Origin: Trypanosoma brucei
Taxonomy: Eukaryota
Length of the DNA stretch: 64,000 nucleotides
Reading direction: 5' to 3'
NCBI GenBank assembly: GCA_000002445.1
Contig: CP000069.1
Span: 416,001-480,000 of the forward strand
Shown here: positions 1,146 through 64,000 of the stretch, piece after piece
Numbering within the stretch: position 1 is the stretch's first letter
How the letters are laid out: the number at the start of each line of letters is the position of its first letter
Notes under the pieces: model-generated
The model's database searches: none
What the model saw: the letters and a program-made list of their open reading frames with translations, nothing else
Told to the model about the DNA's origin: nothing
Translations under genes and position numbers: made by a program

Positions 1146-2726
<1,581 letters not shown>

Positions 2727-2906
2727 CTATGCACATACCACACGCACATGCCCTCCAGGTGTATTACAGTTTCACTACACAGCCGCTCGCCGAAGAAGAT
2801 AGAATTGAGGGGGAGTAAAAAGGGAAGGAAATAAAAAAAAAAACCAAGCAATAATGAACGAGAAACACCAATCACAAGGTGAAGCGCAACCCAAGACTAC
2901 GCCACC

Positions 2907-4487
<1,581 letters not shown>

Positions 4488-4667
4488 CTATGCACATACC
4501 ACACGCACATGCCCTCCAGGTGTATTACAGTTCCACTACACAGCCGCTCGCCGAAGAAGATAGAATTGAGGGGGAGTAAAAAGGGAAGGAAATAAAAAAA
4601 AAAACCAAGCAATAATGAACGAGAAACACCAATCACAAGGTGAAGCGCAACCCAAGACTACGCCACC

Positions 4668-6248
<1,581 letters not shown>

Positions 6249-6428
6249 CTATGCACATACCACACGCACATGCCCTCCAGGTGTATTACAGTTCCACTAC
6301 ACAGCCGCTCGCCGAAGAAGATAGAATTGAGGGGGAGTAAAAAGGGAAGGAAATAAAAAAAAAAACCAAGCAATAATGAACGAGAAACACCAATCACAAG
6401 GTGAAGCGCAACCCAAGACTACGCCACC

Positions 6429-8009
<1,581 letters not shown>

Positions 8010-8196
8010 CTATGCACATACCACACGCACATGCCCTCCAGGTGTATTACAGCTCCAAGATATAGCATCCTGTGTGGGATGTTTTATTTTCTTTTTTAAT
8101 AAAAAAATTTTGATGTTTTTGTTTATTTTTATTTTTATTGATGCTGCCTTTTTTATTGTTATTTGAAGAGAAGAAAATTACTTTTTATTGCATATT

Positions 8197-8220
8197 AATA
8201 TATATATATATATATATATT
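8197..8220. repeat. (TA)n microsatellite, with a second (TA)n at 8349..8375, inside a T-rich AT-rich tract spanning 8060-8480
   Basis: Read directly from the sequence. Confidence 0.9.
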
Positions 8221-8851
8221 AGGTTTTTTCTATTTTTAGGATATATATATTTTTTCTCCTTTTTTTGTGTACAGCAGGAGTGACGGTGTCTATTTGTGTT
8301 ATGCTTATGCGTGGTAGCGTTGTTGATGTCGAATTTTTTTTGTGGCCTTATATATATATATATATATATATATATTAGTTGTCTAATAAATTATGTATAA
8401 CTTTTTGTATTTGGTGATTACCTTTTTACTTTGAGAGATGCGTTGGTTCTCTCTCTATTTTTTTAAGTGTTGTAAAAATTGTGTATATCCTTATGTTTAA
8501 TACTTTGTAAAATTAGATTGTCTTTCTATGATGAAGGGGCATCTCAGAGGGGCCTACTTTTAATTCGTGCCAGTGTGTTCCAGAGAACGGTGTAAGCTAA
8601 GTGTGTTGTGTGTCTTAGATTGAGGTGCATGATGGAAAAGATGATGTATTGAGGTTTGTGTTGGTTAACAGTGATACAGAAGGGCTGTCAGTCTCAGGAA
8701 AGCAGTTTCTCGGGGGCGGGGAGGGGGAGTAGGCGATAGAAATAAGAAGCAATTAAAAAAATAAAAAATGTTACCTTCACGACGGTACAGGCTCGATGGT
8801 CGCCCGTTTTCGATATCCAACATTACACATACTGTTTAGATGAATGAAGAT

Positions 8852-11647
8852 CTACCCTGATGCGATATTTGCCGCCGTTTGTTCTAACACCCACCAAAGT
8901 GATACCGCCATATCCGTCAGAGTGATCTGTCTCCTATTTTCTGTGGAGTGAGAACGCGAAGTAAGGGGGTAGTCGTCAAAAACCTCAACGGTGCGTGGGG
9001 TGACGAACCGTAGCGTCGCAAATGGTGTCAATTCCCTGTGACTTCCCATCGTTTCAACTTTGCAAATCTTCTTTTCCCCGCCTTCTCCATCTCCCTGGCC
9101 CACATTCTCTCCTCGCTGCTGTTTGCTTCGCCGCAGACTGAGGCGCCGAGGCGGGCCTCTTTCAAGTCCGTGGGTAGGAGGTGATTCAGAAGCTTCGACA
9201 CCGCTGCTGTCTACATCCACACTTTGGCCCTGTTTCTTCACTAAACGTACCGAAGGAGAGGTACGAAATGACCTCTCGGCACGTTCGACAAGTTTCCAGA
9301 AACCACTACAGAATTGTCCCGGGATGACCGTGTCTCCCAAGACACAAACTTTGAAAACCTCCCACCACCCCGCGCCGCTGCTGGCGTTGGCAGCTCCATC
9401 ATAAGGCGCGGCACCAGTTGCGGCGCTACGGTCGCTCTTTCTCTCCTTTTGGCGTTGGACAAGCGTAGCAAAGAGGCCTATGGCAACAAGCAAAGATTGA
9501 TGTTGCTGATGCTCGGGCATAAGGCAGAGGGCAAAACCCGAGGCCCGCAGGCATCGGACGACTGGCCAAGGTGTAGCAAGAGCTAAATCAATTGCATTTG
9601 ATGTTGCTTCGACTGCCCATGCATCAACCACTGGAAATATGTCACGTGGGAGAGTGCTGCATAGTAGTAGAGCCTCGAGTTGGAGATGCAGTGCACACTC
9701 AATAAGGCACTCGAGTTCTTCCTCACTTCGGCTGAAGAATGCAGAACAGGGAGCGCCCAAAGTGTCCCCACAACTTGCGGCATCTGTTGTAAAGCGTGAG
9801 ACTGGGTAATGTGCATTGGTATTTGATTTCTCAACTCTTGATAAGTGCCCGTTTGACTTTCTCTCGTGGACAGATTGTTGCTTTGTGAATAACCCACGGC
9901 ATCCAATGAGTCGGCGGGCGGTTGTGGACAAGGTAAACGTAATTGCTGCCAGGGGATCACGACCGACGGACGCTCGTGAGCCTCGCTGCAATGGCACGGT
10001 AAAAAGGGTGGGGCCTTGCTGTTGCTGTTGCTGGTGTATTGGGGCCCGCCGATTGTTATTATTTGCCGCTGCCGTTGTGGTTGGTGGTAGCAATTCAACG
10101 ATGCGCCGCGATTCAGCAACATCTATGCGTACGAAGCTACATGTCGCAGCGCACATAGCACTCCAGCACCGCAACGGTGAAGTTCCTCCCGCATGAAGAG
10201 AGCCGTGCACAGCATGCCGTCTCGCTCTACCTACCCACTTTTCTTGAAGTCTTTCATCGTCTTGTGAGCTTCTGCTTGTCCGAGGAAGAAGGGGTAACAC
10301 GTCGTTTGACCCCATGTGTGCTTCATCAAGCAAACGAACAACCAAAACTATGTCTCCAGCACCCTGTGAAGTTGGAGGTGATGAGGGCATCCGCAGCACA
10401 ACGCCTGAACAAGAAACGACGCATGAGTAGAAGTCCCCCTCTTGAGTGGATTTTCCCGCGCCCCTGTACCCGGTAAGAGCCCGCGGAAGCCAAACGCCCA
10501 CGCGTGACCCACGTCCAATCAGGTTGAAGTTTAACAGAAAAAACGGTGGGGGAAGTCGAAGTCGATACGGCTGCTGCTGTTGTGCTTCCTCAACTAGCAG
10601 GCAGCACAGTATACTGCAGAATGCCTTGAGGTGCGAGGAAAACCGCGGATCCATTTGCACAAGGTTGTGAAGGTGAGGAATGCTCTCAATGAGTGTCGCG
10701 TTTCCCACTAGTGCCACAATCTTAATTGCACAGGAGAAGTAATATGCGCGAGCGAACCGTTTCCCGCACTTGTCAACTGTGGCAAACCAATCACCCAATA
10801 GACCAGTGGCGGCACGTTGCACTTGAGTGCGTTCCTTAGACCGTATGTGAAAAGCTGAAGGGGCACCGCAAACATTGCCGAACTCAGCCTTCTCAGTAAC
10901 CTTCTCATCACTATGAACAAAACTCGTCTTATTGTCGTCACCACCTTCCTCACTATCAGTGGCCGCAGGAATTTCATGTAACTGCAGGAACCACAAAACA
11001 GCCTCCACCCAAGAGGAATTTGTTCCTGCTCCCGCAGTCGGACCAGGCGTCTCTAGTATTTCACCCCCTTGCTTTCCGGGGGACCACTCCTTAGCCCACA
11101 GCGAACCGCTGTGAAAAAGAAGGGCAAGAAAGAGTTGATCAGACCCTAGTAGATGCCTCCAAATTTCAATACAGCGCCTCCACCGCTGGGCGCTGCTGCA
11201 AGCAGAACTGCCCTTATTACTAAAAGACGTAGCATTAAGCGATGCTTTTGTGCTGCACACTCCGTTACCATCATTCTCATGTTCGCGCTGAGCCGTCAAC
11301 AACTTCTCCTCAGCTTCAACCTCCGCCTTCACCTCTGCTCCTTCGTATGTGGTTGTGTCGGCTTCCCAATCATCGTTTTCCACTACTTCTCCTACAAGGT
11401 GCTTGACAAGTGTCGGTAGGAGCCTTTCAAGTGCTCGGGACATATCCAAACCCACACCGCACCCCTCTGCGCTCTGTTTCCCGAGTCGTAGCCTCACACT
11501 TAGTTTTCCTGCTTTCCCGCTTTTGTTTTCTTTTTGACCTTCCGTGCTATTGTTACTGCTATTTCGCCCATTGCGGTGTTCATGTTGATGAGAGCGTGAG
11601 TAATGAAAGAGGACGTGCGTGGGAAAAAATGCCGATGACAAATACAT
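8852..11647 (-). CDS. Hypothetical protein (up to 931 aa). Low-complexity segments including poly-Q and poly-N. The true start may be the internal Met at 11443 (MSRALERLL...)
   Basis: Long minus-strand ORF. No family recognised. The N-terminal 68 aa are of uncertain coding status. Confidence 0.6.
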   Translation of the reverse strand: MYLSSAFFPTHVLFHYSRSHQHEHRNGRNSSNNSTEGQKENKSGKAGKLSVRLRLGKQSAEGCGVGLDMSRALERLLPTLVKHLVGEVVENDDWEADTTTYEGAEVKAEVEAEEKLLTAQREHENDGNGVCSTKASLNATSFSNKGSSACSSAQRWRRCIEIWRHLLGSDQLFLALLFHSGSLWAKEWSPGKQGGEILETPGPTAGAGTNSSWVEAVLWFLQLHEIPAATDSEEGGDDNKTSFVHSDEKVTEKAEFGNVCGAPSAFHIRSKERTQVQRAATGLLGDWFATVDKCGKRFARAYYFSCAIKIVALVGNATLIESIPHLHNLVQMDPRFSSHLKAFCSILCCLLVEEAQQQQPYRLRLPPPFFLLNFNLIGRGSRVGVWLPRALTGYRGAGKSTQEGDFYSCVVSCSGVVLRMPSSPPTSQGAGDIVLVVRLLDEAHMGSNDVLPLLPRTSRSSQDDERLQEKWVGRARRHAVHGSLHAGGTSPLRCWSAMCAATCSFVRIDVAESRRIVELLPPTTTAAANNNNRRAPIHQQQQQQGPTLFTVPLQRGSRASVGRDPLAAITFTLSTTARRLIGCRGLFTKQQSVHERKSNGHLSRVEKSNTNAHYPVSRFTTDAASCGDTLGAPCSAFFSRSEEELECLIECALHLQLEALLLCSTLPRDIFPVVDAWAVEATSNAIDLALATPWPVVRCLRASGFALCLMPEHQQHQSLLVAIGLFATLVQRQKERKSDRSAATGAAPYDGAANASSGAGWWEVFKVCVLGDTVIPGQFCSGFWKLVERAERSFRTSPSVRLVKKQGQSVDVDSSGVEASESPPTHGLERGPPRRLSLRRSKQQRGENVGQGDGEGGEKKICKVETMGSHRELTPFATLRFVTPRTVEVFDDYPLTSRSHSTENRRQITLTDMAVSLWWVLEQTAANIASG

Positions 11648-49836: not shown

Positions 49837-51087
49837 CTATTTTTGCAGCAAGTGTTTTTTTACTAGTTCGCACATCCTACGATACTTCAACTTCATAACT
49901 TCCTCCTCTGAGGGAAGCTTGGCATTAGCGACGAGATGGCGCTCACCACACTCATTCGCGTTCACATCAACTTTATCGTACAATACACTGTAAAAAAAAT
50001 TTCTCAAAGTCTTCAAGAGAATACCCTGCGACCATGCAAATCCATGGCTCGCTTCACCGGGCATAATTAATGGTCGTGACACGTACATATCCAACTGCTG
50101 CAACTCCACGGTCCTGTTCCCGACAATAGTCAAGATGCAGCCGCTATTCTTGTTCACATCACAGAAATGCGGAGCTGAAAAGAGGAAAATGTAGCTGGGC
50201 ACGCGAAGGCCCTTACGTATCCTGCCAAACATCCAACCAGGAAGATACCTGGACTCTCTGTACCGGTCAAAACTCATAAAGTTTTCCGAGCGCTCACTCG
50301 ACGCGTGGAATTCGATACCAGCAATGTGGGTGAATAAGTCGTTGCGCAACAGAAAGTTACACAACGCGTTATGGGTGTACCTCAGACAATTTCCTGTTGC
50401 CGTGTGTGAGCCGACGAAGGCGCAACCGGCGTAAAGCTTGTCCTCCTCCTCGTTCATGGGTTGATTTTGAACAAACTCATTTAACCGCAGCCGTGAGCGC
50501 TCCCTGGAAATTTCTTCTGTGAAACGGTACGTAGAAGCAATCCCACTGGACGAACAGAAAAAACGCTTATTTATAATGCAGGCTACAGGGAGCGTGGAAA
50601 AGAAGCGTCGCACCGTTTCTTCAATGGAATCCAGTGGAACATCACAGTGTATTGAGCGCAGGCGGAGCTCTGCTCGCAACGATCCGAAATCTCCCGGGGG
50701 GAACGGGTAGAACATTTCGTGGCGTCCAACCAGCGGTGTAACAGAGGGAAGGTCCAGCATACAAAGGGCGAGCATGTACAAAACCTCAACGGAGTGATGG
50801 CCGCCGTCCACGTAGTTGCCGAGGAAAACAAGATTCAGCTTTCCTTGTATTGCCCTACTTAAGACGTGCGTATCTAAACAGTGAGCCAAGTCTGCGGCGT
50901 GCCCTCTGCATGGACCTATGACGACTGTGTCACCAGAAACTTCCTCGAGTGGGCGACCACCATCGCGACGTGAAGCGGCCGCCGAAAGCACCTTAAGGAA
51001 CTCCACCGTCGCAACACATTCGCCGCGCAGCACCGACTTCACTGCCTCTCCTATATGTAGATGTGCTTCTGTCGATACAGATGGCAT
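49837..51087 (-). CDS. PPP-family Ser/Thr phosphatase-like protein (calcineurin-like metallophosphoesterase fold) with degenerate catalytic motifs. Putative pseudophosphatase, 416 aa
   Basis: GDxHG -> VIGPCRGH. GDxVDRG -> GNYVDGGHHS (Arg lost). GNHE -> GRHEM. Downstream HGG-like and SAPHF (SAPNY-like) elements retained. Start re-called to the Met at 51087 (MPSVSTEAH), because codons 1-32 of the supplied ORF translate a pyrimidine tract followed by AG. Confidence 0.65.
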   Translation of the reverse strand: MPSVSTEAHLHIGEAVKSVLRGECVATVEFLKVLSAAASRRDGGRPLEEVSGDTVVIGPCRGHAADLAHCLDTHVLSRAIQGKLNLVFLGNYVDGGHHSVEVLYMLALCMLDLPSVTPLVGRHEMFYPFPPGDFGSLRAELRLRSIHCDVPLDSIEETVRRFFSTLPVACIINKRFFCSSSGIASTYRFTEEISRERSRLRLNEFVQNQPMNEEEDKLYAGCAFVGSHTATGNCLRYTHNALCNFLLRNDLFTHIAGIEFHASSERSENFMSFDRYRESRYLPGWMFGRIRKGLRVPSYIFLFSAPHFCDVNKNSGCILTIVGNRTVELQQLDMYVSRPLIMPGEASHGFAWSQGILLKTLRNFFYSVLYDKVDVNANECGERHLVANAKLPSEEEVMKLKYRRMCELVKKHLLQK

Positions 51088-51117
51088 CCGCACAATCCTA
51101 ATCCAATACTTATACCG

Positions 51118-51176
51118 TGGGCAAAGAGAGAAAAATATCAAGGAAGAAGGTAAAATGGACATAACAGGGAAAGAGT
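51118..51176 (-). promoter_or_regulatory. Polypyrimidine tract plus AG (minus strand). Candidate SL trans-splice acceptor for the phosphatase-like gene
   Basis: Minus-strand sequence tctttccctgttatgtccattttaccttcttccttgatatttttctctctttgccc...ataag...attag, then ATG. Confidence 0.5.
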
Positions 51177-51295
51177 TCTCCATATACTGTTTTTAATGCG
51201 CAAAACTTGTATTTTAAAATTTGTTGCATATCCGAGTATGCACGTACACGGAGGAGGTGGTTGGTGTACTCCCTCAGCCGGCTTCCTAGCTGTCA

Positions 51296-54830: not shown

Positions 54831-55478
54831 CTAGAATATAGTGAATGTTTTCTTGAGCTCCTCGCCCACATTATGGTCCGTTGGGTTTGCCATCGCCTCA
54901 TATACAACATTAGTCGCCGTCTGCTGGTAAACCGGTCTCCCCGTCGACTCGCCGAAAAGTTCTATCCGAAGTATGTGGGTTTCGTCGTCTCCGAAACTAT
55001 GCTCGAATAGCATTCCCATACACCCTGCTGAGGAAAATTTCGCCGGGTTCAAACGGTACGCTATGCGGTCGTCGGCAGACACCTGGGCGAGTTGAATCTC
55101 CTCCTGGTGTTGTAAACGTCGAACGGAATCAAATCCAACAACACCGGTGGGGTTGCAGAACAGCTTCACTTGGGAAGGGGCGAAATCGTCATTGGTTCCA
55201 AGGATCGATACGGATCTAATACGGCAAACCTCCTTGAGTGGAATGAGCAAAAGCAACTCCGGGTCAGCATCACTACATATTGGTTGATCGTTGTCACCTT
55301 TCGCCGGATCAAAGATACGCGCTGCCTCTGAAACACTATTTCGCGAATTCCACAGCTGCAAAAGATCAACGTCCACTTGTGCATTTAGTGGCGACCCCAC
55401 ACCAAACATACCGCCGCGCGCAAATCCGTCCTGAAGATGATCATGTGTCCCTGTGCCTTGACGGCAGTTGCAAGGCAT
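54831..55478 (-). CDS. PITH-domain protein (proteasome-interacting thioredoxin C-terminal-domain family, DUF1000), 215 aa
   Basis: ...LLLIPLKEVCRIRSVSILGTNDDFAPSQVKLFCNP...FDSV...AYRLNPAKFSSAGCMGMLFEHSFGDDETHILRIELFGESTG is PITH-like. Start re-called to the Met at 55478, because the upstream 44 codons are poly-Phe/Leu translated from an A/T run. Confidence 0.6.
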   Translation of the reverse strand: MPCNCRQGTGTHDHLQDGFARGGMFGVGSPLNAQVDVDLLQLWNSRNSVSEAARIFDPAKGDNDQPICSDADPELLLLIPLKEVCRIRSVSILGTNDDFAPSQVKLFCNPTGVVGFDSVRRLQHQEEIQLAQVSADDRIAYRLNPAKFSSAGCMGMLFEHSFGDDETHILRIELFGESTGRPVYQQTATNVVYEAMANPTDHNVGEELKKTFTIF

Positions 55479-55787
55479 CAACTGTTTATTTATTTTTTTT
55501 AGCTCATCCAAAAACAATCCATCGCAACATGAGGTAAATGAGCGCAAAAAAAAAAAGGTCAACAACGAAAGGGCGGTAAAGAAAAAACAAAACAAAAAGC
55601 AGCGCTCCACTAAACATTATCAGAAATAATGGAGACTTTCAAGGAGGCACGCACATCATGATAACAAAAGCACGATGAAAGTACGGAGACGGCTTCACTC
55701 CGCTCACACAGCGAACACCGTCGTTAATGTGAATCTTACTTCTCATTAAATACCCCATGCACACACACGACGAAAGAAATCATCCCT

Positions 55788-56687
55788 CTACTGGCATTTC
55801 CCCGGCGCAAAGAGCGCGGTATGATATCTGAACATTTCGTAAGTGACAGCGGAGGGAGGCATTATACCTTGCTCAGAAAAAACAAGCGTGACCATCGATG
55901 GAGGAACAAATTCTACGAGGGGTACATCGCTACTCCCTTCGGGCTGCCTGAGATCTGCGGTGCTGAGGGGGAAAATGTGGGCAAACTTAAAGGTTTCACA
56001 GAGGACGTAGAAGGGAACATTCATAGCAGATGCCACTGTTGCTATTTGTAGGGATCCCGTTGAATGAACGAGCCCTCCATGCTCGGTAACACAGTAAGCA
56101 CCGGTGACGACAAAGTCTACTTTGCTCATAACAGCGCCTACACCGGCATCTGGTATGATGGTGCAGTATTGCTGAAGCTTTTCTTTAAGTTTCAACCCTT
56201 CATGAGTTGCAGATGCTTTTCTTAAAAGTGCCTCACCAGTACCCTGAGGGTACTTTGCTGTTGCCGGACGACCCTCACAAATGTAAAAATGAACACCCTC
56301 CCGCTCCTGAATGGCACAGGCAATCGCGAGAGCCAACAAATCACCACAACCGTGAACCAGTATTCGCGAGGTGCTTCGGATGAAAGGAAGCATGTCATTG
56401 ATTTGGTCTTTTTGGCTGCACTCAAAATCCCTGAGTCGTGACTCGCACCGTGCATTCATGTCAACTAAACTACTCCTTAAGTCTGGGCTGTTTGCCGCGT
56501 CTTTAGTTAGGTCTATGCGAAAGCGCTCAAAGCCGTCACCGATAGACTTGTAGCCCTTCAACATATTCGTTATTTCCTTATCGAGCTCTGAATATGTTGA
56601 AAACTGTTTAGATGTCAGCAGCTCTTGCACCTCCTTCACCACCCTGATCATGATGCTAATATCATAGTCATCATGGGGCACTTCCAT
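55788..56687 (-). CDS. eIF-2B alpha/beta/delta-family protein (most like eIF2B-alpha/GCN3; a sugar-phosphate isomerase of the same fold is the alternative), 299 aa
   Basis: ILVHGCGDLL, GRPATAKYPQGTGEAL, VDFVVTGAYCVTEHGGLVHSTGSLQIATVASAMNVPFYVLCETFKF match the IF-2B family core. Start re-called to the Met at 56687 (MEVPHDDYD). Confidence 0.6.
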   Translation of the reverse strand: MEVPHDDYDISIMIRVVKEVQELLTSKQFSTYSELDKEITNMLKGYKSIGDGFERFRIDLTKDAANSPDLRSSLVDMNARCESRLRDFECSQKDQINDMLPFIRSTSRILVHGCGDLLALAIACAIQEREGVHFYICEGRPATAKYPQGTGEALLRKASATHEGLKLKEKLQQYCTIIPDAGVGAVMSKVDFVVTGAYCVTEHGGLVHSTGSLQIATVASAMNVPFYVLCETFKFAHIFPLSTADLRQPEGSSDVPLVEFVPPSMVTLVFSEQGIMPPSAVTYEMFRYHTALFAPGKCQ

Positions 56688-56928
56688 GTTTACTCCCCCC
56701 TTGATAGACACACTAGACCCAAAAGCAAACCGACATGAGTAGCAGCAATAACAGGAACATGAAAGCATCAATAGAAAGTGACGTTTTTTTTTTTTTTGAA
56801 GGTAGCGAGTAAAGAAGGGTAAACCAGCAGTTATCAGGCACTGAGATGGTAATACAGTCGATCTGGAGAAATGATTCACTTCTCTGTGTGGACACAAAAA
56901 TACGCATAGATAGGACCAACAATGGGTG

Positions 56929-59631
56929 TTAAAGTGACTCTATAAAGAGCAGAACTTCTTGGCAATAATCAGGAACCTGATGTTTCGCCATCGCGTCCAT
57001 GACCAAATCTTTTGTCACAGAGGGCGCCAAAATAGCAGTTTCCTTGAGCACACCCACAAGGATGGGCTTCAGTCCCACAGTCTCGTCATGATCATCTAGG
57101 TGTATCAACAGCTTCTTGAGTAATGGAGTGGCCTGTGATAATATCTCGTCTATAACAATCGGGCAGACTTCATTCTTATTTTCTAAAATGGCTAACAATC
57201 CCGACGCAGCTTTTGCACGTATCATGTCATTGGAATCATCGAACCGCAGGATAATTGACTGCAATATGTCGCTAGCGGACCCCGCATTAATCGGTAAATA
57301 AGAAAGGTTCGGTACATTGACCATGCACATCAGCCTCATTTCGGGGTCATCCGCATCCGATGCATTGCACCAGTTGGTCACAACCTTTGAAGAGAGAGCA
57401 AAGGCATTGTCACACAACGAAGGCTCCAGCAATTTGCGGTGCCACTCCTGCAGCAGAGCACACTGGGAGCTTACGGCAACCTTTCGAAACAGATGTGCCT
57501 GACCACCAGGACGGAAGGCCCCTAGAGGTAAAATAACGACTCGAAGCACCTCCTCCAACTGACGCCCTGAAAACACTGGCACTTTCCGCCAGAGAAGTTC
57601 CTCCAGCATACGCATATACTGCAAACAGTCAGTGACGCGTTGTGTGAAGTCAATGTCACTTAGTTTCAGTAAAAATATATTAGACAGCTGCTCGCCGTAC
57701 ATACCGATATTGCTCGAACTCAGCACAAGGTCGGAGAACGCACTAACAGGCATTCGAGTTCCGTAGCGGGATAAAATTCTTTTAAAGTGTAAGTCATAAA
57801 TAGCTCCCGGCTGCCCCGTAACGACAGTGGATAGGTGCGCAGTGCATTTCGAGACACGTTCCTGCACGGAAGGAAAACTGGAAGATCGTAGGCAAAGGAA
57901 AGCATACAGCAACACTGAGTCAAGCGTCCGTTGATTTACATCGTCGCGAACTTCCTGGGGTAGTGGGTTATCTGGTGTGGCGACAAAATCACGCTCCCCC
58001 AGAACCTTTATAACCACATCGAGAGTATCCAAGAGAGAACACAGTAGAGCTTCAGAATCGCTTTCCAATACGTCACTTTTCGTCATTGCACTTACGATAT
58101 GTGTGGCATTCGTCGCTGACAGCAGCGATTTCGAACCTTCTATAAGATACCGAAATGCAACCAAAATGCTGCACTTAACCGACGCAGCAGCGGTCGAAAA
58201 AAGCGTGGGGGAGTTGGTTGCCTCACCGTTTGCTGATGAAATGACAACAGTCTTCGAGCGTGACTGAATGACAGTAGGCTGTGATGCCTCAGATTCTTTC
58301 GGTGCTTCCTTCGAAGTCAAAAACGGTAAATACTGATCCGGTGTGAGGAACTTCCCCAAAATTTCCAAGCAGATAAGAGATTCTTGGACAACGTCCTGAC
58401 TGTCCCTTAGAGACTTGTACAACACACCCAAAATTTGCTCCACGAACTGTACGACAGATTTCTCAGTGTGGTAAATAGACATCCACAATATGCGTAACGC
58501 AACAACGCGTCTGTTGTTGGAAGAAAATGGAACGACCCAATCTATCGCGCAGACATCTGCAAAAACAGTCTCTATAAAACCACGTAACGACTCAGCAACC
58601 ACATAACGGGCGCCCAAAGATGGTCGGCGTCGAAGAACAGGATAAAGACTTGTATCAACTGTAGTTAGTGACATGTCAGGATACTCCTCATCTCCATACC
58701 ATTCAATATCCTTCATGGTAACCCTTCTCTTCGTTATATCGATGGTGTTGTCTTCGTTATCGAGAAGGTACTGTTTTCCCATATTTTCTAGTACCTGGAG
58801 TGCTTTCTCTGAGACAGCAGGAAAGTGATCAGTCACAAGAAGTAACAGATGGGGAAGTAGCCTTCGGTGCTGATCTTGACGTTCCTGTATGTCCAAAAGC
58901 GACATGGAAAGAAGGTCTACGAGGGCCGACCGCACAACCTCAGCATGATCATTCGCCAAAACAAACAATGTGTACGCAGTTGTCCGGTTTGCGGGTTCAT
59001 CCTTGCCGTCGGCAAGGATCTCCACGGCTCCTCGTTGTATGAGTGACGCCAGTGTCCGCGCAGCCTCTGCCCGAACCACACTGTGTTTGTGTAGTAGACA
59101 GTTTTTTACGACTTTTGCCAAGGGAAGGGACACGTGCTTCACTTGTACAGGCTCAATTTCGCAGAGCCGTACACAGGCGCGACAAGCCTCCTTCTTTAGA
59201 TCAGGGTAGGCGTCTCGCAGACAATTTTCAAGCAGTACCTGCAAAAAATCGATATAGTTCCGAGGCCCGATTTCATGGGGGAAAGTTTCCATGCAAAGCA
59301 CCGCAAGCCTCAATAATAGAAGTCGCAGTTCCTCACTTTCCTCCGCAACGGGCGAAACACCTATTCGCGTTACCACTGCCGGCAAAACCCAGTCGAGGAC
59401 AGACGGCGGCTGCCTCACAAGAATAGACGATACAATTTGAATGGCGTACTCACGACACCTCTCAGCACTGTCCTCAAACCCCCGAAGGCAACTACGGAGC
59501 AAATCGAACTCTTTTCCTTCTGTTAGCTTGCCGTCTGAACACAGATCAAGGAGTTTGGTGTACGCCTGCAACCGCTTTGGCCGAGCAACATCGGAAAGTT
59601 CATTCAAATGCTTGGGGAAGAGATCCATCAA
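56929..59631 (-). CDS. HEAT/ARM-repeat protein, 900 aa. Possibly a dynein-assembly-factor-5 / HEATR2-like scaffold, though that is speculative
   Basis: Long, helical, Leu-rich repeat character throughout. No enzymatic motif. Confidence 0.5.
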   Translation of the reverse strand: MMDLFPKHLNELSDVARPKRLQAYTKLLDLCSDGKLTEGKEFDLLRSCLRGFEDSAERCREYAIQIVSSILVRQPPSVLDWVLPAVVTRIGVSPVAEESEELRLLLLRLAVLCMETFPHEIGPRNYIDFLQVLLENCLRDAYPDLKKEACRACVRLCEIEPVQVKHVSLPLAKVVKNCLLHKHSVVRAEAARTLASLIQRGAVEILADGKDEPANRTTAYTLFVLANDHAEVVRSALVDLLSMSLLDIQERQDQHRRLLPHLLLLVTDHFPAVSEKALQVLENMGKQYLLDNEDNTIDITKRRVTMKDIEWYGDEEYPDMSLTTVDTSLYPVLRRRPSLGARYVVAESLRGFIETVFADVCAIDWVVPFSSNNRRVVALRILWMSIYHTEKSVVQFVEQILGVLYKSLRDSQDVVQESLICLEILGKFLTPDQYLPFLTSKEAPKESEASQPTVIQSRSKTVVISSANGEATNSPTLFSTAAASVKCSILVAFRYLIEGSKSLLSATNATHIVSAMTKSDVLESDSEALLCSLLDTLDVVIKVLGERDFVATPDNPLPQEVRDDVNQRTLDSVLLYAFLCLRSSSFPSVQERVSKCTAHLSTVVTGQPGAIYDLHFKRILSRYGTRMPVSAFSDLVLSSSNIGMYGEQLSNIFLLKLSDIDFTQRVTDCLQYMRMLEELLWRKVPVFSGRQLEEVLRVVILPLGAFRPGGQAHLFRKVAVSSQCALLQEWHRKLLEPSLCDNAFALSSKVVTNWCNASDADDPEMRLMCMVNVPNLSYLPINAGSASDILQSIILRFDDSNDMIRAKAASGLLAILENKNEVCPIVIDEILSQATPLLKKLLIHLDDHDETVGLKPILVGVLKETAILAPSVTKDLVMDAMAKHQVPDYCQEVLLFIESL

Positions 59632-60071
59632 GTACCAAACAAGGGCTATATCAACACTATGAACGTTGGAAAACTGATGTGAGTAATAAAATTATAGAGG
59701 AAAGCAGTGTAGATATAAACAAATTGTCCGTGGTTAACAATCAGTGGTCGCTCCTACTTCCCTCATAATAGGCTAACAAAGTGAACCTTCGTTTTTTTTC
59801 AACACGCAATAGTAAAGTTATGGCGAGCGCCCGAAGGTGGACCAAGTACCTACGGCGATAGTTACGTCATATCAGAAATATGAATACGTTTGACATAGTT
59901 TCAAATTGCAACGGGAACCGTCCTGGTGTTTTCTGCACTGTACAGCAGGGCCTGAGGTTGTCAAGCCCCACACGCCAAAGATTATCTACCATCAACGTTT
60001 GCTTCTTTCGTGGTAGAAACGCGGCAGACCATCAACACGTTGACTCCACATCCCCCCCCAAAAAAAAAACC

Positions 60072-60148
60072 GTATGGCTACCATTTAATGTGTAGCACCG
60101 CAGAGCAGGGCATCTCAGAGCGACAAACACATTAAATGGTAACCATAC
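60072..60148. repeat. Inverted repeat: 22-bp arms (gtatggctaccatttaatgtgt / acacattaaatggtaaccatac, one mismatch) around a 33-bp spacer, immediately preceded by a C9A9 homopolymer pair at 60052..60069
   Basis: Read directly from the sequence. Could form a hairpin or cruciform with a 22-bp stem. Confidence 0.85.
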
Positions 60149-63100
60149 TTGATACTGTAAAGTAATACAACACCCCTATCTGTTGTCTTTCCGCGATTCA
60201 CCAGTAAATGCTCACTTAGAAAGGTATATAGTTTCACGTGAACGTAGAATGATTAAGCGAATAAAAATCAGATTAACAACAACGAATAAGCGTTTTACCT
60301 CACGGTGTGCAACAATATTTTCTGCTGTATGACGGTCATCTACCTTCGACGATGCCTCTGCAAACATACGGAACAAGCCACAAGATCCAGGCTATCACGG
60401 CGTGCATCACCAAAGGGACCGATCAACCACCCTGAAGGAGAGAATTAATGCCCCAGTGATGTGTAAGAAAAATCTCATTCGAGATATGTTTATTTCGCCT
60501 TGTCGCTGAATAGTTGCCTTGTCCTCCGTGTCTGAAACACAAGCACAATAATCAGCTTGGTTTCCTCTTCCGAGAGTGAGCCTAACTTTGTAGCTGTGCA
60601 TGCACTTCCAACAAGCATCTTCCAATTTACAAATGCTATGGGTTGCCACACTTAGTTGTACGTCAATTCCTTGCCTCACATTATGATCATCCTAAAAGGC
60701 GCGAAATTTTCGTGTCTTATATGTGCCACCCCAGTTGTAGTCGCCCTTTATGTGCCTTATGTTGTCATGCATATCGAAAACAGGCAAGATACATTTAAAA
60801 AAACGATACCGATTATCCTCAATGGTATTTATTAAGCAAGGGCTGATTTCTTTCACGAATAGAGAACGAACAAAGTGAGGAGCCTGCGTTCTTCATCGCT
60901 AAAGTGTGCGTAAAACACGACCCCACCATTTTTCAAACGATCGTCGAACCGAAACTTGAAAAGCAACTGAGAATAAACCGCGGTTCCGCTGAGAGGTACC
61001 TAATGATGCTTCCATTTCATTTTATACAGTGCTCTCCAACCAGGCAGAAATAACTCTGTGAACAGTAAAACGTCGACGATATTTATCGATAGATACGTCA
61101 ATGTAGGAACAGTTTCCACACGGATCCTATATTATGTGCTGCCTCGTCAATGGCAGACAAAAAATACAACGGTTACACTTTCTACAGCAAACTAAAGCAC
61201 CTACCAAAATAATTTCTGTCCATGCGGCGCGGCCACTCGGATCCTAAGCCCCCCCTCAAGCACAAAAAACTGCAATCACAGCCACATTCCATGCCGCCAG
61301 TTGGTGTGCACACGCCACTCACAACGGCAACAGACACCGTGGTAAACGCGCCGAAGTACTTTGTGCTGTTTTTTTTTTCCAAATTCTCCAGAACAAGAAA
61401 GACCTCACCAAGAAGGAACAGATAGAGGCGGACCACGCCCATCCAAAATTTCAACGTACGCTACGGCCATCACGAACGAGTTCACAGATGACGCAAGAAT
61501 ACCAATGCAGCCACAAACACAGGCGCGCGGCTGCAAATGAAAGACTCTCCGTCTCAACCTCCCGAGCCCTCAGAAACTGAACAACACTCAGTTGGCAGCG
61601 GTTACCGGTTGTCGGAAAAGTCTTCGTCACACAGGGGCAACGTATCAGCAAATACGAAGTTGTCCCGATTCCGTCGGGAAACCATAGCCTTACCGGCTGC
61701 AGTCTCCGGCCACATGTCAGAATTGACCCACGCAAGCCGCGTCAACAACGTACCAGAAGCGAGCGGACAGCAGTGCAGGAAGGTAGGCATGGATGACCTC
61801 AAGTGGAGAGCACAAGGGGAAGCGTCCCCTTCCAATTCTCTCCAGAGAAAAGGTAGTGAAAAGGATTTGGGAACCGCTGCTGGTTCTCTTTTTTTCTTTC
61901 TCTTGATTCCCTCTGAGCCGCTGTGGCACGCTGAACGAAAATTTCACCACATGGGGCGAACGGGCCGCGCAGGCAGAACGTAATACAAACGAGAAAGGGT
62001 CATACCACCTCGACCCGCCAACGCCAGGCAGTCATGCGGCGATGCAACGAAAGAAACATGAATACCTCGGAGCAGGACAGCGGCTTTTGCCACGTCCCCG
62101 GCAAACTATCGTTAGGGTAACCCGTTTCCAGGGGAGGGGGCTTATCATTAAGGGGTCGGGCAGTATCACCGACAGCAGATTCCCTAATTTTTAATTATTG
62201 GGGATAAACAACCCGGTGCCCCGGGTCGAATCATAAACCCTCTTCATCTCGGCGTTTCACACCCCTTTATGCGTGGGAACAGATCCACTCCTTCCCCCAC
62301 ACACAAATTTTTTGAAAGTGTCTAAGAGTGCACACCATTTCCCTTATTTTTTATTTTGTTCTGGGATTCCCATTTCTACACATCGGAAACTATGACCTTC
62401 GGCCCCCAATCTTTTCTTACTTCCCTTTTGGAGAATTGTGCCTCTCCCTCCCCGTCGACACCCAATCGGCGTTACCAGACAACATTGACGGGTCGGGGCC
62501 ACCTCAGCAGGAAGCTCTCCGACTCCAAGGAGATGCCTGGTGAAGCGGTGAAGAACCTTACGAACAAGTGGACAACATTTTCCCTGAGTCGTGTGACCCA
62601 ACCCTGCCGGAGCGGGGCCACTGCCCTTCAGTGACAGCGTGAGGTCACAGCACCGATATCGAAGCAAGTAAAGAAGCCTGATGACCTAAGGGCACGTCGT
62701 TCAACAAAATTTAAACCGGGTGCGTGCAATATGCAGTATCAGGTTTTTTTCTTTTTTGCGTCGCATGTCGTGTGTACGGCCAGCCCACTTGCAGCAGTAT
62801 GCCCACAGAAGCACACGCGCAAACTGAAAAAGCAACAGCCGGTTTTAGCAGACAGCATCCAGCAAAGATTAGCTAAGTATTTTATTTACGCCCTTTAAAG
62901 AAGAAAACAGGCGTTCTAAGACTCGGGGTCATCAAAGGCCAAAAGTACACTTTCCCGGCTGCGAATGCCTTCTTTCAGACGTCGGATGCCCCTGGCCGCT
63001 TCATGCGTGGTAAAAAGCTTCCGCGCGTACTCACGGCCAAGTACAAGAAAAGGAAAAGAAACCGATTACGTGGTCGTTCTACAAAACTTATAGTCGGGAA

Positions 63101-63940
63101 CATCAACGGCAGGCAATGGCAACCACTGATGGGGCCGGTGAGGGAATCGGCAGTTGAACCGTGACTATTGTTTTCTCACGTACTCACACTTCCTCTTTCG
63201 TAGAATAACGGTACCGAAGTGTCATAAGATATGCTTGAACACACTCCATCGACTACTCTCAAGGAAGAAATCGTGTGGAGATGTGATCCTAAAGGCAAAT
63301 AACGGCAAACCGGGTGCTGTAACAGCTGTACAGCCGGAGAAATCAAAGCGAACCGACGTTGAGCCAAAAAAAAATTTGAAGCAGCATGGCCGAGAGGATC
63401 AACACATGCCGACGACGACTCTTATTCCAAAAAGAAGCTCCCTCTTTACTGCAGTTACGGATTGCCAACTTCGGTGGAGGCACCATTGCAACGGGTCAAA
63501 ACTGATTGGGAGACCAACGAACACTTGGTTGGGACTTCATCCTGAAGTTGTTGCACAGTTTCCCGCTGCAACCACTTGATTATCGCAGCAAGAAACTATG
63601 CTGTACGGAATGGCGGATCCGGAGCGGCGCGACATACATGCCTTCGCCATCGGCTATCACTGATATGCGGGAACAACCCGACGTGGCACTCTGACGGCAA
63701 TGATTCCGAGGACGCACAAATGGCGGTATGCTCCAACACAGCGGGGTAATTGAGGGCCCTTTTCCACCGACGACCCCAGGCTCTGATATGGGAGTCAAAT
63801 GTGAGGTCATGGTGAAACACTTGAAGTGTGCTTTTCCTTTTCACTGTTTGAAGATATTCACAGTCACCGGGAAAGACAGCAGAGAAATCTTTTTTCATTT
63901 TTTTTTTTTAGAATTTTCTTCGTGCCTTCGTGAGAGTTTC

Positions 63941-64000
63941 CCCCCACTGGCGCGGCCATCAGCCATCACCGTAGAGCCCTGAGATGCTATCGGTCTGGCG
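63941..64000 (+). mobile_element. Possible 5' terminus of an ingi/RIME-type non-LTR retroposon running off the right edge
   Basis: 'cccccactggcgcggccatcagccatcaccgtagagccctgagatgctatcggtctggcg', preceded by a T-rich run. It resembles my recollection of the conserved ingi/RIME 5' end ('CCCTGGCG...'), but I could not verify this. Confidence 0.3.

What the first reader, a model, noticed from the sequence alone, without database searches (positions are those of the whole stretch)
59632..64000. Gene-free 4.4-kb block terminating a >59-kb single-strand gene array: likely transcription-unit boundary
All 27 CDS to the left are on the minus strand, with typical 0.3-1 kb spacers. To the right the coding signal stops entirely. 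The sequence is not simple low-complexity spacer. It has balanced composition and many short ORFs in all frames, which is how decayed coding sequence looks, for example a retroelement or RHS-like pseudogene. In T. brucei such regions often coincide with divergent strand-switch regions and RNA pol II start zones.
Basis: inference. Interest (0 to 1): 0.5.

Follow-up and report, generated by a model that had tools for sequence, protein, structure and literature searches.

The report
Known trypanosome strand-switch region, one arm
The gene-free 4.4 kb is the already-mapped upstream arm of a divergent RNA polymerase II start region on Trypanosoma brucei chromosome 6, carrying one low-level non-coding transcript and ending in a RIME retroposon, so it is ordinary and already described.

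Summary
The window is T. brucei TREU927 chromosome 6, Tb927_06_v4:416001-480000. The last CDS (56929-59628, minus) is Tb927.6.1290, a DNAAF5/HEATR2 homologue.

Positions 59632-64000 have no coding signal, no Pfam domain in any frame, no tRNA or Rfam hit and no repeats. Their ORF lengths are what chance gives.

The boundary reading is right in kind. Kolev et al. 2010 list Tb927.6.1290 as the first ORF of a minus-strand Pol II unit of type "Divergent". Its partner is the single plus-strand gene Tb06.3A7.960, about 8.7 kb away.

The block is not the switch point. It is the minus-strand arm. G+T skew and TSR-type 10-mers keep minus polarity up to about 63.8-64.5 kb and flip only beyond the window edge. 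A processed minus-strand transcript, Tb6.NT.36, is mapped at 61055-59800.

The "decayed retroelement/RHS" idea fails, with one exception. The last ~100 bp (63898-64000) are the poly(A) 3' end of a ~0.5-kb RIME, which has a perfect 12-bp target-site duplication and lies mostly outside the window.

Verdict: already known, low interest. Side notes are a 22-bp hairpin with a compensatory change, and sense-oriented Pr77 elements in the same region in three Trypanosoma species.

The parts
56929..59628 (-). CDS of Tb927.6.1290 (DNAAF5/HEATR2 homologue, 899 aa), the first ORF of the minus-strand Pol II unit Tb927.6.1290 -> Tb927.6.820
   Evidence: It is 100% identical to XP_845251.1 and carries the Pfam domains TPR_DNAAF5 and HEAT_DAAF5. 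The coordinate offset of +416000 comes from Kolev Table S1. The unit table is Kolev Table S14.
59629..59799 (-). Candidate 5' UTR, AG splice acceptor (minus-strand AG at 59675-59674) and pyrimidine tract (about 59676-59709) of Tb927.6.1290
   Evidence: Read directly from the sequence. This is inference; the splice site was not checked against data.
59800..61055 (-). Tb6.NT.36, a 1255-nt trans-spliced and polyadenylated 'novel transcript' (0.54 RNA per cell in procyclics), probably non-coding
   Evidence: Kolev 2010 Table S7 gives Tb927_06_v4 477055->475800, minus. It is absent from the homology, peptide and no-ORF tables S8-S11. An AG sits at 61057-61056 on the minus strand. Divergence from T. 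b. gambiense is 2.6% with 9 gapped columns. There is no coding score.
60051..60148 (-). Hairpin inside Tb6.NT.36 (arms 60072-60093 and 60127-60148, 22 bp, 33-nt loop), followed on the minus strand by T10 G8 (60051-60068)
   Evidence: Inverted repeat and fold, z = -2.8. One stem pair reads U.G, C-G and U-A in three T. brucei-group genomes on the minus-strand RNA. The T10G8 run matches TSR coding-strand 10-mers.
61056..63885 (-). Remainder of the minus-strand arm of the strand-switch region. The Pol II start zone of the unit must lie here or at the RIME.
   Evidence: Plus-strand G+T skew is -0.07 to -0.20. Minus-strand TSR-type 10-mers occur at 61511, 62131, 62294-62298 and 63364. It lies upstream of the mapped splice acceptor at 61055. 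The exact start site was not determined here.
63886..63897 (-). Downstream copy of the 12-bp target-site duplication TGAAAAAAGATT (read on the minus strand)
   Evidence: It is identical to the copy directly in front of the element's 5' end at L002 5204-5215.
63898..64000 (-). Poly(A) tail (T12 on the plus strand, 63898-63909) and last 91 nt of a RIME retroposon. The element continues about 400 bp beyond the window.
   Evidence: Total length is ~504 bp. In T. b. gambiense the 5' end is an intact Pr77 hallmark, with CCACC at 16-20, TCAA at 21-24 and CGTG at 25-28. Words from the 3' end recur among TSR-enriched 10-mers.

Best explanation
Positions 59632-64000 are the minus-strand half of an ~8.7-kb divergent strand-switch region on T. 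brucei chromosome 6 (Tb927_06_v4 about 475.6-484.3 kb).

RNA polymerase II starts in a broad zone to the right of position 61055, most likely between about 61 kb and the centre of the region at about 64.4 kb. It then reads leftwards.

The first product is a low-abundance, spliced and polyadenylated non-coding RNA, Tb6.NT.36 (61055-59800). Next comes Tb927.6.1290 (DNAAF5), followed by the rest of a unit of at least 98 kb that runs down to Tb927.6.820.

The opposite arm, outside the window, reads rightwards into the single gene Tb06.3A7.960.

A ~0.5-kb RIME retroposon has inserted at the centre of the region, in the same orientation as the minus-strand unit. Only its poly(A) 3' end is inside the window.

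Shown: absence of coding sequence, strand polarity, the opposite-strand neighbour, synteny, RIME anatomy, and published unit and transcript assignments.

Inferred: the position of the start zone within the arm, and the chromatin marks.
For: 1. Identity and coordinates. The last CDS is 100% identical to T. brucei TREU927 XP_845251.1. Three ORF coordinates in Kolev 2010 Table S1 match window ORFs with a constant offset of 416000.

2. Published mapping. Table S14 of Kolev 2010 (PMC2936537) is based on 5'-triphosphate-end RNA-seq. It lists Tb927.6.1290 -> Tb927.6.820, minus, 'Divergent', followed by Tb06.3A7.960, plus, 'Divergent'.

3. Right-hand neighbour. In the 98.3%-identical T. b. gambiense locus the next real gene (310 aa) is on the opposite strand, about 8.7 kb from the DNAAF5 ATG. 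Its TREU927 coordinates are 484320-485252, plus strand.

4. Polarity.
- Plus-strand G+T skew is -0.093 over 59632-63897, similar to intergenic spacers inside the unit (-0.076).
- It is +0.116 over the other arm.
- The cumulative minimum is at about 63.8 kb.
- 10-mers that Wedel 2017 found enriched on the coding strand of start regions fall 22 minus / 4 plus between 60 and 64 kb. They fall 9 plus / 1 minus between 64 and 66 kb; the 9 plus-strand hits all lie between 64.02 and 65.81 kb.
- A G10 run sits on the plus strand at about 64.52 kb.

5. Transcript. Tb6.NT.36 is mapped on the minus strand at 61055-59800.

6. No coding or RNA gene. The block is also the fastest-diverging stretch locally: 2.1% against 0-0.85% in CDS.

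7. Conservation of architecture. DNAAF5 heads its unit, with opposite-strand genes upstream, in T. vivax, T. theileri and T. cruzi. In Leishmania it is internal to a unit.
Against: - No chromatin or nascent-RNA track could be read here. The exact start site or sites and the H2A.Z/H4K10ac extent at this locus are inferred from general properties of such regions.
- Sequence to the right of 64000 comes from T. b. gambiense and T. b. equiperdum, not from the strain of the window.
- Without the RIME words, the 10-mer bias inside the window is modest: about 6 minus loci against 3 plus.
- Several pyrimidine tracts lie on the plus strand at 61.3-62.8 kb. They fit the antisense initiation reported for all such sites, but they are not explained in detail.
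- Tb06.3A7.960 gave no detectable transcript in procyclic cells, so the opposite arm may be weak.
Confidence: 0.87

Rival explanations
1. The block is only a long spacer inside a continuous minus-strand unit, which continues with further minus-strand genes to the right.
For: T. b. gambiense annotation places a 162-aa gene on the same strand 40 bp beyond the window end. A minus-strand processed RNA lies in the block.
Against: - The 162-aa ORF lies across a RIME that has a 12-bp target-site duplication, a Pr77 5' end and a poly(A) tail.
- Composition polarity flips at about 64 kb.
- The next real gene is on the plus strand.
- Kolev Table S14 starts the unit at Tb927.6.1290.
Confidence: 0.04
2. 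The block is decayed coding sequence: a degenerate ingi/DIRE retroelement or an RHS pseudogene.
For: - A RIME touches the right edge.
- The orthologous T. cruzi region carries an RHS gene and Pr77 remnants.
- Stop codons are slightly fewer than simulated: 326 against 366 +/- 18.
Against: - Six-frame Pfam scan at E<=1 gave 0 families, so no reverse transcriptase, endonuclease or RHSP.
- tblastn with a T. cruzi RHS protein gave nothing below E = 1.9.
- tblastx against the T. vivax, T. theileri and T. cruzi upstream regions hits only the RIME 5' part, outside the window.
- The longest open run equals chance.
Confidence: 0.05
3. The block hides an unannotated protein-coding gene, for example the 148-aa plus-strand ORF at 61537-61983 or a small ORF in Tb6.NT.36.
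For: The ORF at 61537-61983 is also open in T. b. gambiense. Weakly positive codon scores occur on the plus strand at 61.25-62.9 kb. Tb6.NT.36 is spliced and polyadenylated.
Against: - Scores are 0.03-0.09 against 0.1-0.2 in real CDS, and they change frame.
- Divergence is 2-3% with indels.
- There is no Pfam match.
- Tb6.NT.36 is not among the transcripts with homologues or peptides.
- The ORF length is within chance.
Confidence: 0.05
4. Besides transcription initiation, the region serves as an ORC1/CDC6-bound site or a replication origin. This would be an added role, not an alternative.
For: Tiengwe et al. 2012 report that replication initiation sites in T. brucei lie at the boundaries of transcription units (paper abstract, listed).
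Against: Nothing specific to this locus was found in the text or supplement that could be read. Only a minority of unit boundaries are active origins; this last point is from my own knowledge of that paper.
Confidence: 0.15

Closest known systems
Divergent strand-switch regions / divergent transcription start regions (dTSRs) of Trypanosoma brucei (Siegel 2009; Kolev 2010; Wedel 2017; Staneva 2022)
   Same: - A 5-10-kb CDS-free interval between two units that point away from each other.
- G/T-rich coding-strand bias and G-runs.
- Low-level processed non-coding RNA.
- This very locus is listed as 'Divergent' in Kolev 2010 Table S14.
   Different: Nothing essential differs. One arm leads to a single-gene unit (Tb06.3A7.960) with no detectable transcript in procyclics. 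A RIME sits at the centre.
RIME, the non-autonomous partner of ingi (L1Tc/ingi clade non-LTR retroposons carrying the Pr77 hallmark)
   Same: About 0.5 kb long, with a poly(A) tail and a 12-bp target-site duplication. The Pr77 5' end has the CGTG downstream promoter element at +25 to +28. Such elements are reported to accumulate in strand-switch regions (PMC4748587).
   Different: Only the last ~100 bp are in the window. No reference RIME sequence was available for a direct alignment, so the subfamily is not assigned.
T. brucei intergenic lncRNAs (Kolev 2010 'novel transcripts'; Guegan 2022)
   Same: Tb6.NT.36 is spliced-leader trans-spliced, polyadenylated, of low abundance and without conserved coding capacity.
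   Different: No function is known. It contains an unusually perfect 22-bp hairpin.

Membership tests
T. brucei divergent strand-switch region / Pol II transcription start region | Flanked by transcription units on opposite strands that point away from each other | tested here: met
   All genes to the left are on the minus strand. The next real gene to the right is on the plus strand.
T. brucei divergent strand-switch region / Pol II transcription start region | Experimentally mapped Pol II initiation (5'-triphosphate RNA ends) | not testable with these tools
   No read tracks were available. The published Table S14 of Kolev 2010 assigns the unit start to Tb927.6.1290, type 'Divergent'.
T. brucei divergent strand-switch region / Pol II transcription start region | Enrichment of H2A.Z, H2B.V, H4K10ac, RNA Pol II and SPARC | not testable with these tools
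   This is a general property of such regions. No locus-level data could be read.
T. brucei divergent strand-switch region / Pol II transcription start region | G/T-rich bias and G-runs on the coding strand of each arm, flipping at the centre | tested here: met
   Skew is -0.093 in one arm and +0.116 in the other, with the cumulative minimum at about 63.8 kb. 10-mer counts are 22 minus / 4 plus, then 9 plus / 1 minus. A G10 run lies at about 64.52 kb.
T. brucei divergent strand-switch region / Pol II transcription start region | No protein-coding sequence in the interval | tested here: met
RIME / ingi-clade non-LTR retroposon (element at the right edge) | Pr77 hallmark at the 5' end: CCACC at 16-20 and the CGTG downstream promoter element at +25 to +28 | tested here: met
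   L002 5216-5243 reads CCCTGGCGATGCCGGCCACCTCAACGTG, which matches the description in PMC4748587. This part lies outside the window.
RIME / ingi-clade non-LTR retroposon (element at the right edge) | 3' poly(A) tail and flanking target-site duplication | tested here: met
   A12 at 63898-63909 on the minus strand. The perfect 12-bp duplication TGAAAAAAGATT is at 63886-63897 and at L002 5204-5215.
RIME / ingi-clade non-LTR retroposon (element at the right edge) | About 500 bp, without reverse transcriptase or endonuclease coding capacity | tested here: met
   About 504 bp from the Pr77 start to the end of the poly(A) tail. It holds only a 162-176-aa ORF.
RIME / ingi-clade non-LTR retroposon (element at the right edge) | Sequence identity to a reference RIME | not tested
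   No reference sequence was available. Indirect support comes from the 5' 250 nt, which match Pr77-bearing repeats in T. theileri and T. cruzi. The 3'-end words also recur in at least 6 start regions genome-wide.
Decayed ingi/DIRE or RHS pseudogene (for the 4.3-kb block itself) | Remnants of reverse transcriptase, AP endonuclease, RNase H or RHSP domains in some frame | tested here: not met
   Six-frame Pfam scan found 0 families at E<=1. RHS tblastn gave no hit below E = 1.9.
Unit boundary next to a tRNA, snRNA or rRNA gene | A Pol III or Pol I gene in the interval | tested here: not met
   No tRNA. No Rfam match at the gathering threshold, nor at E<=1.

The most novel reading that the evidence does not exclude
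The sense-oriented RIME at the centre of the region may not be a passenger. Its intact Pr77 internal Pol II promoter (CGTG element at +25 to +28) could supply, or help position, the start of the >=98-kb unit headed by Tb927.6.1290.

Pr77-bearing elements lie in sense orientation upstream of DNAAF5 in T. brucei, T. theileri and T. cruzi. In T. brucei the insertion looks recent, so these appear to be independent insertions.

RIME 3'-end words are enriched 6:0 on the coding strand of the 5'-most fifth of start regions in Wedel 2017's own 10-mer list, where they are not commented on.

This would mean retroposons are recurrently recruited as directional promoter modules for polycistronic units.
Probability: 0.1. 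Interest if true: 0.55.

Novelty: already known. Interest (0 to 1): 0.15.

Why it matters
It matters little beyond correct annotation. The locus is one of about 150 Pol II start regions in T. brucei, and it is already listed as such.

The useful corrections are these:
- The polarity switch lies at the window edge, not at the last CDS.
- The block carries a mapped non-coding transcript.
- The "gene" annotated just to the right in T. b. gambiense is a RIME.

The Pr77-promoter idea has been suggested in general terms by Heras 2007 and Macías 2016. If the sense-oriented RIME/Pr77 elements at the heads of units proved functional, this well-defined locus would be a convenient test case.

Tried and rejected
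- Exact-sequence look-ups of the window's DNAAF5 protein and of P0001 found no contig. The T. b. gambiense and T. b. equiperdum members were used instead.
- tRNA and Rfam scans of the window, the tail at E<=1, and four orthologous loci were all empty.
- Tandem-repeat and dispersed-repeat searches gave nothing of note except one hairpin.
- The first Pfam call failed because of stop codons. It was repeated with stops masked and found nothing.
- The HpHbR mono-allelic silencing paper was read because it concerns a chromosome 6 strand-switch region. It deals with a different locus, Tb927.6.360-440.
- Siegel 2009 could not be retrieved.
- Maree 2017, Tiengwe 2012 and the Guegan 2022 supplements gave no locus-level information.
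- A literature search for the gene and transcript IDs returned one unrelated paper.
- A replication-origin role was considered and could not be assessed.
- The large protein-database searches were not spent on the chance-length ORFs, because codon score, divergence and Pfam already argue against coding.
Full report
**What the window is**

The last large ORF (56929-59628, minus strand) encodes an 899-aa HEAT/TPR protein of the DNAAF5 (HEATR2) family. It is 100% identical to T. brucei TREU927 XP_845251.1 and to the T. equiperdum protein.

Kolev et al. 2010 (PMC2936537) Table S1 gives Tb927_06_v4 coordinates for three ORFs:
- Tb927.6.1070: 424852-427647
- Tb927.6.1230: 465837-467183
- Tb927.6.1280: 471788-472768

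These equal window ORFs 8852-11647, 49837-51183 and 55788-56768 with a constant offset of 416000. The window is therefore Tb927_06_v4:416001-480000. The DNAAF5 gene is Tb927.6.1290 and the finding covers 475,632-480,000. The four tandem ORFs at the left end are the cathepsin-L array.

**Checking the observation**

- No ORF above 148 aa exists in 59632-64000.
- A codon-usage score trained on the window's own genes is positive and frame-consistent across every CDS. It collapses to about 0, with changing strand and frame, after 59631.
- The longest stop-free run is 163 codons. Simulated sequence of the same dinucleotide content gives 151 +/- 30, so the "many short ORFs in all frames" are uninformative.
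- Composition is balanced, with GC 0.478.
- There are no tandem repeats, no dispersed repeats shared with the rest of the window, no tRNA and no Rfam family, even at E<=1.
- A six-frame Pfam scan with stops masked found no family at E<=1.
- Against T. b. gambiense the block is the fastest-diverging local stretch. It differs by 2.1% with 22 gapped columns, against 0-0.85% in neighbouring CDS.

**What lies to the right**

The T. b. gambiense orthologue (L002, 98.3% identical over window 55001-64000) extends 5.6 kb beyond the window. Coordinates beyond 64000 below are window-equivalents taken from this locus, good to about +/-20 bp.

Its annotation has a 162-aa gene on the same strand 40 bp beyond the window end. 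After that comes a 310-aa gene on the opposite strand. In TREU927 this second gene is Tb06.3A7.960 at 484320-485252, plus strand.

The 162-aa "gene" is not a gene. The only part of the whole 8.7-kb interval that is conserved in T. theileri and T. cruzi is a ~250-nt stretch inside it, and that stretch is conserved at nucleotide level in all frames.
- It begins CCCTGGCGATGCCGGCCACCTCAACGTG.
- This fits the published Pr77 hallmark of L1Tc/ingi-clade retroposons: CCACC at 16-20, TCAA at 21-24 and the CGTG downstream promoter element at +25 to +28 (PMC4748587).
- The element runs on the minus strand of the window and ends in A12, which is T12 at 63898-63909 on the plus strand.
- It is flanked by a perfect 12-bp duplication, TGAAAAAAGATT, at L002 5204-5215 and window 63886-63897.
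- Its length is about 504 bp, so it is a RIME. Only its last ~100 bp are inside the window.

**Where the strand polarity switches**

Plus-strand G+T skew is negative across the whole minus-strand array, and it stays negative in the block:
- -0.093 over 59632-63897
- -0.076 in spacers inside the unit
- +0.116 over about 64.4-68.3 kb

The cumulative minimum is at about 63.8 kb.

Wedel et al. 2017 (PMC5579346) showed that start regions carry G/T-rich words on the coding strand, and listed them in Dataset EV1. Scanning with that list gives:
- 22 minus-strand against 4 plus-strand hits between 60 and 64 kb
- 9 plus against 1 minus between 64 and 66 kb, with all 9 plus-strand hits between 64.02 and 65.81 kb
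- a G10 run on the plus strand at about 64.52 kb
- T10G8 on the minus strand at 60051-60068

Nine of the minus hits are RIME words. Without them the bias inside the window is about 6 loci against 3, so the skew is the stronger argument. The centre of the region is thus at about 64.4-64.5 kb, at the RIME 5' end. The block is the minus-strand arm, not the switch itself.

**Published experimental assignments**

Kolev 2010 Table S14 was built from 5'-triphosphate-end RNA-seq. The authors report enrichment at every divergent unit, with both sense and antisense reads. The table lists "Tb927.6.1290 -> Tb927.6.820, minus, Divergent", then "Tb06.3A7.960, plus, Divergent", then "Tb927.6.2150 -> Tb927.6.1300, minus".

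Since Tb927.6.880 lies at 377-379 kb, the unit is at least 98 kb long.

Table S7 lists a novel processed transcript, Tb6.NT.36: 477055->475800, minus strand, 1255 nt, 0.54 RNA per cell. This corresponds to window 61055-59800. The sequence has the expected AG at 61057-61056 on the minus strand. The transcript is not among those with homologues, peptides or no ORF.

Minus-strand transcription therefore crosses at least the left 1.4 kb of the block, and initiation must lie to the right of 61055. Tb06.3A7.960 gave no detectable transcript in procyclic cells.

**Conservation**

DNAAF5 is the first gene of its unit, with opposite-strand genes upstream, in three other species:
- T. vivax, with a 7-kb gap
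- T. theileri, with GH125 fragments 2.1 kb upstream
- T. cruzi, with an RHS gene and a 98-aa ORF upstream

In Leishmania donovani it is internal to a unit and has different neighbours. The boundary is therefore a Trypanosoma-wide feature at a synteny break. G+T skew minima lie 0.5-4.4 kb upstream of the ATG in these species.

The [quoted passage not shown] reading is right. The [quoted passage not shown] reading is wrong for the block and right only for the RIME at its very edge. The refutation criterion is met only superficially, by a non-coding RNA and a RIME ORF.

**Novelty**

This is already known. The locus is in a published list of Pol II units and its transcript is in a published table. 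The general architecture is textbook for T. brucei: 5-10-kb start regions, G/T-rich coding strand, and retroposons accumulating at strand-switch regions.

**Side observations**

1. A 22-bp hairpin lies inside Tb6.NT.36 (60072-60093 / 60127-60148).
   - One stem pair reads U.G in TREU927, C-G in T. b. gambiense and U-A in T. b. equiperdum on the minus-strand RNA. The fold energy stays near -40 kcal/mol in all three.
   - On the plus strand, TREU927 has a C.A mismatch.
   - This could reflect selection on an RNA structure, or palindrome-templated repair.
2. Pr77-bearing elements lie in sense orientation upstream of DNAAF5 in T. brucei, T. theileri and T. cruzi.
3. RIME 3'-end words (TAGCATCTCA, GGTGATGGCT, GGCTGATGGC, GGAAACTCTC and others) appear in Wedel's list with counts of about 6 on the coding strand against 0 on the non-coding strand, in the 5'-most fifth of start regions. 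That paper does not mention retroposons.

Observations 2 and 3 keep alive, at low probability, the previously suggested idea that Pr77 promoters contribute to polycistronic initiation.

Noticed in passing
window 60051-60148: A near-perfect 22-bp inverted repeat (arms 60072-60093 and 60127-60148, 33-nt loop) lies inside transcript Tb6.NT.36. On the minus strand it is followed by U10 G8. One stem pair varies in a compensatory way on the minus-strand RNA across three T. brucei-group genomes (U.G, C-G, U-A), and the fold energy stays near -40 kcal/mol in all three. It has no Rfam match.
   Followed up: partly
window 63886-64000, continuing to about 64401 (L002 5216-5731): A RIME retroposon on the minus strand with an intact Pr77 hallmark, A12 tail and perfect 12-bp target-site duplication TGAAAAAAGATT. 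The T. b. gambiense annotation calls a 162-aa 'gene' across it (L002 5101-5589).
   Followed up: yes
L004 841-1092 (+); L005 9398-9490 (+) and 3172-3363 (-): Pr77-bearing retroposon remnants occupy the orthologous strand-switch region in T. theileri and T. cruzi. One copy in each species is in sense orientation upstream of DNAAF5. In T. cruzi the sense copy coincides with the G+T-skew minimum, 527 nt upstream of the ATG. In T. theileri the element lies between two Glyco_hydro_125 fragments.
   Followed up: partly
Wedel 2017 Dataset EV1, compared with window 63912-63989: Nine of the published 'GT-rich' start-region coding-strand 10-mers are RIME words. Eight fall in the window at 63912-63989: CGAAGAAAAT, GAAGAAAATT, GGAAACTCTC, GGGGGGAAAC, GGCTGATGGC, GTGATGGCTG, GGTGATGGCT and TAGCATCTCA. 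The ninth, TGGGCACGTG, lies in the RIME 5' half outside the window. In region 1 their counts are 6-8 on the coding strand against 0-1 on the non-coding strand. This hints at sense-oriented RIME/ingi at the 5' edge of several start regions.
   Followed up: partly
window 7918-8613 (-): A second published novel transcript, Tb6.NT.35 (Tb927_06_v4 424613->423918), lies in the spacer between the cathepsin-L array and Tb927.6.1070. That spacer has an atypical positive plus-strand G+T skew of +0.22.
   Followed up: no
window 1146-8003: Four tandem 1761-bp copies of the cathepsin-L-like cysteine peptidase gene (part of the Tb927.6.960-1060 array; Peptidase_C1, Inhibitor_I29 and DUF3586 domains). The mechanical ORFs are 524 aa because they start at an upstream GTG.
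   Followed up: partly
L002 357-1289 (window-equivalent about 68.3-69.3 kb, plus strand): Tb06.3A7.960 is the only gene of the opposite unit. It encodes 310 aa, and by my reading of the translated sequence has a hydrophobic (signal-peptide-like) N-terminus and a hydrophobic C-terminus. It has no Pfam family. Kolev 2010 list it as having no detectable transcript in procyclic cells.
   Followed up: no
L006/L007 (Leishmania donovani): In Leishmania the DNAAF5 gene is internal to a transcription unit and has different neighbours on both sides. The Trypanosoma strand-switch therefore coincides with a synteny break.
   Followed up: partly
window 61360-62760 (+): Several pyrimidine tracts lie on the plus strand (T11 at about 61369-61379, plus tracts near 61880-61912, 62340-62440 and 62745-62760), inside an arm whose overall polarity is minus. 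They may relate to the antisense initiation reported for all such sites, but they remain unexplained.
   Followed up: no
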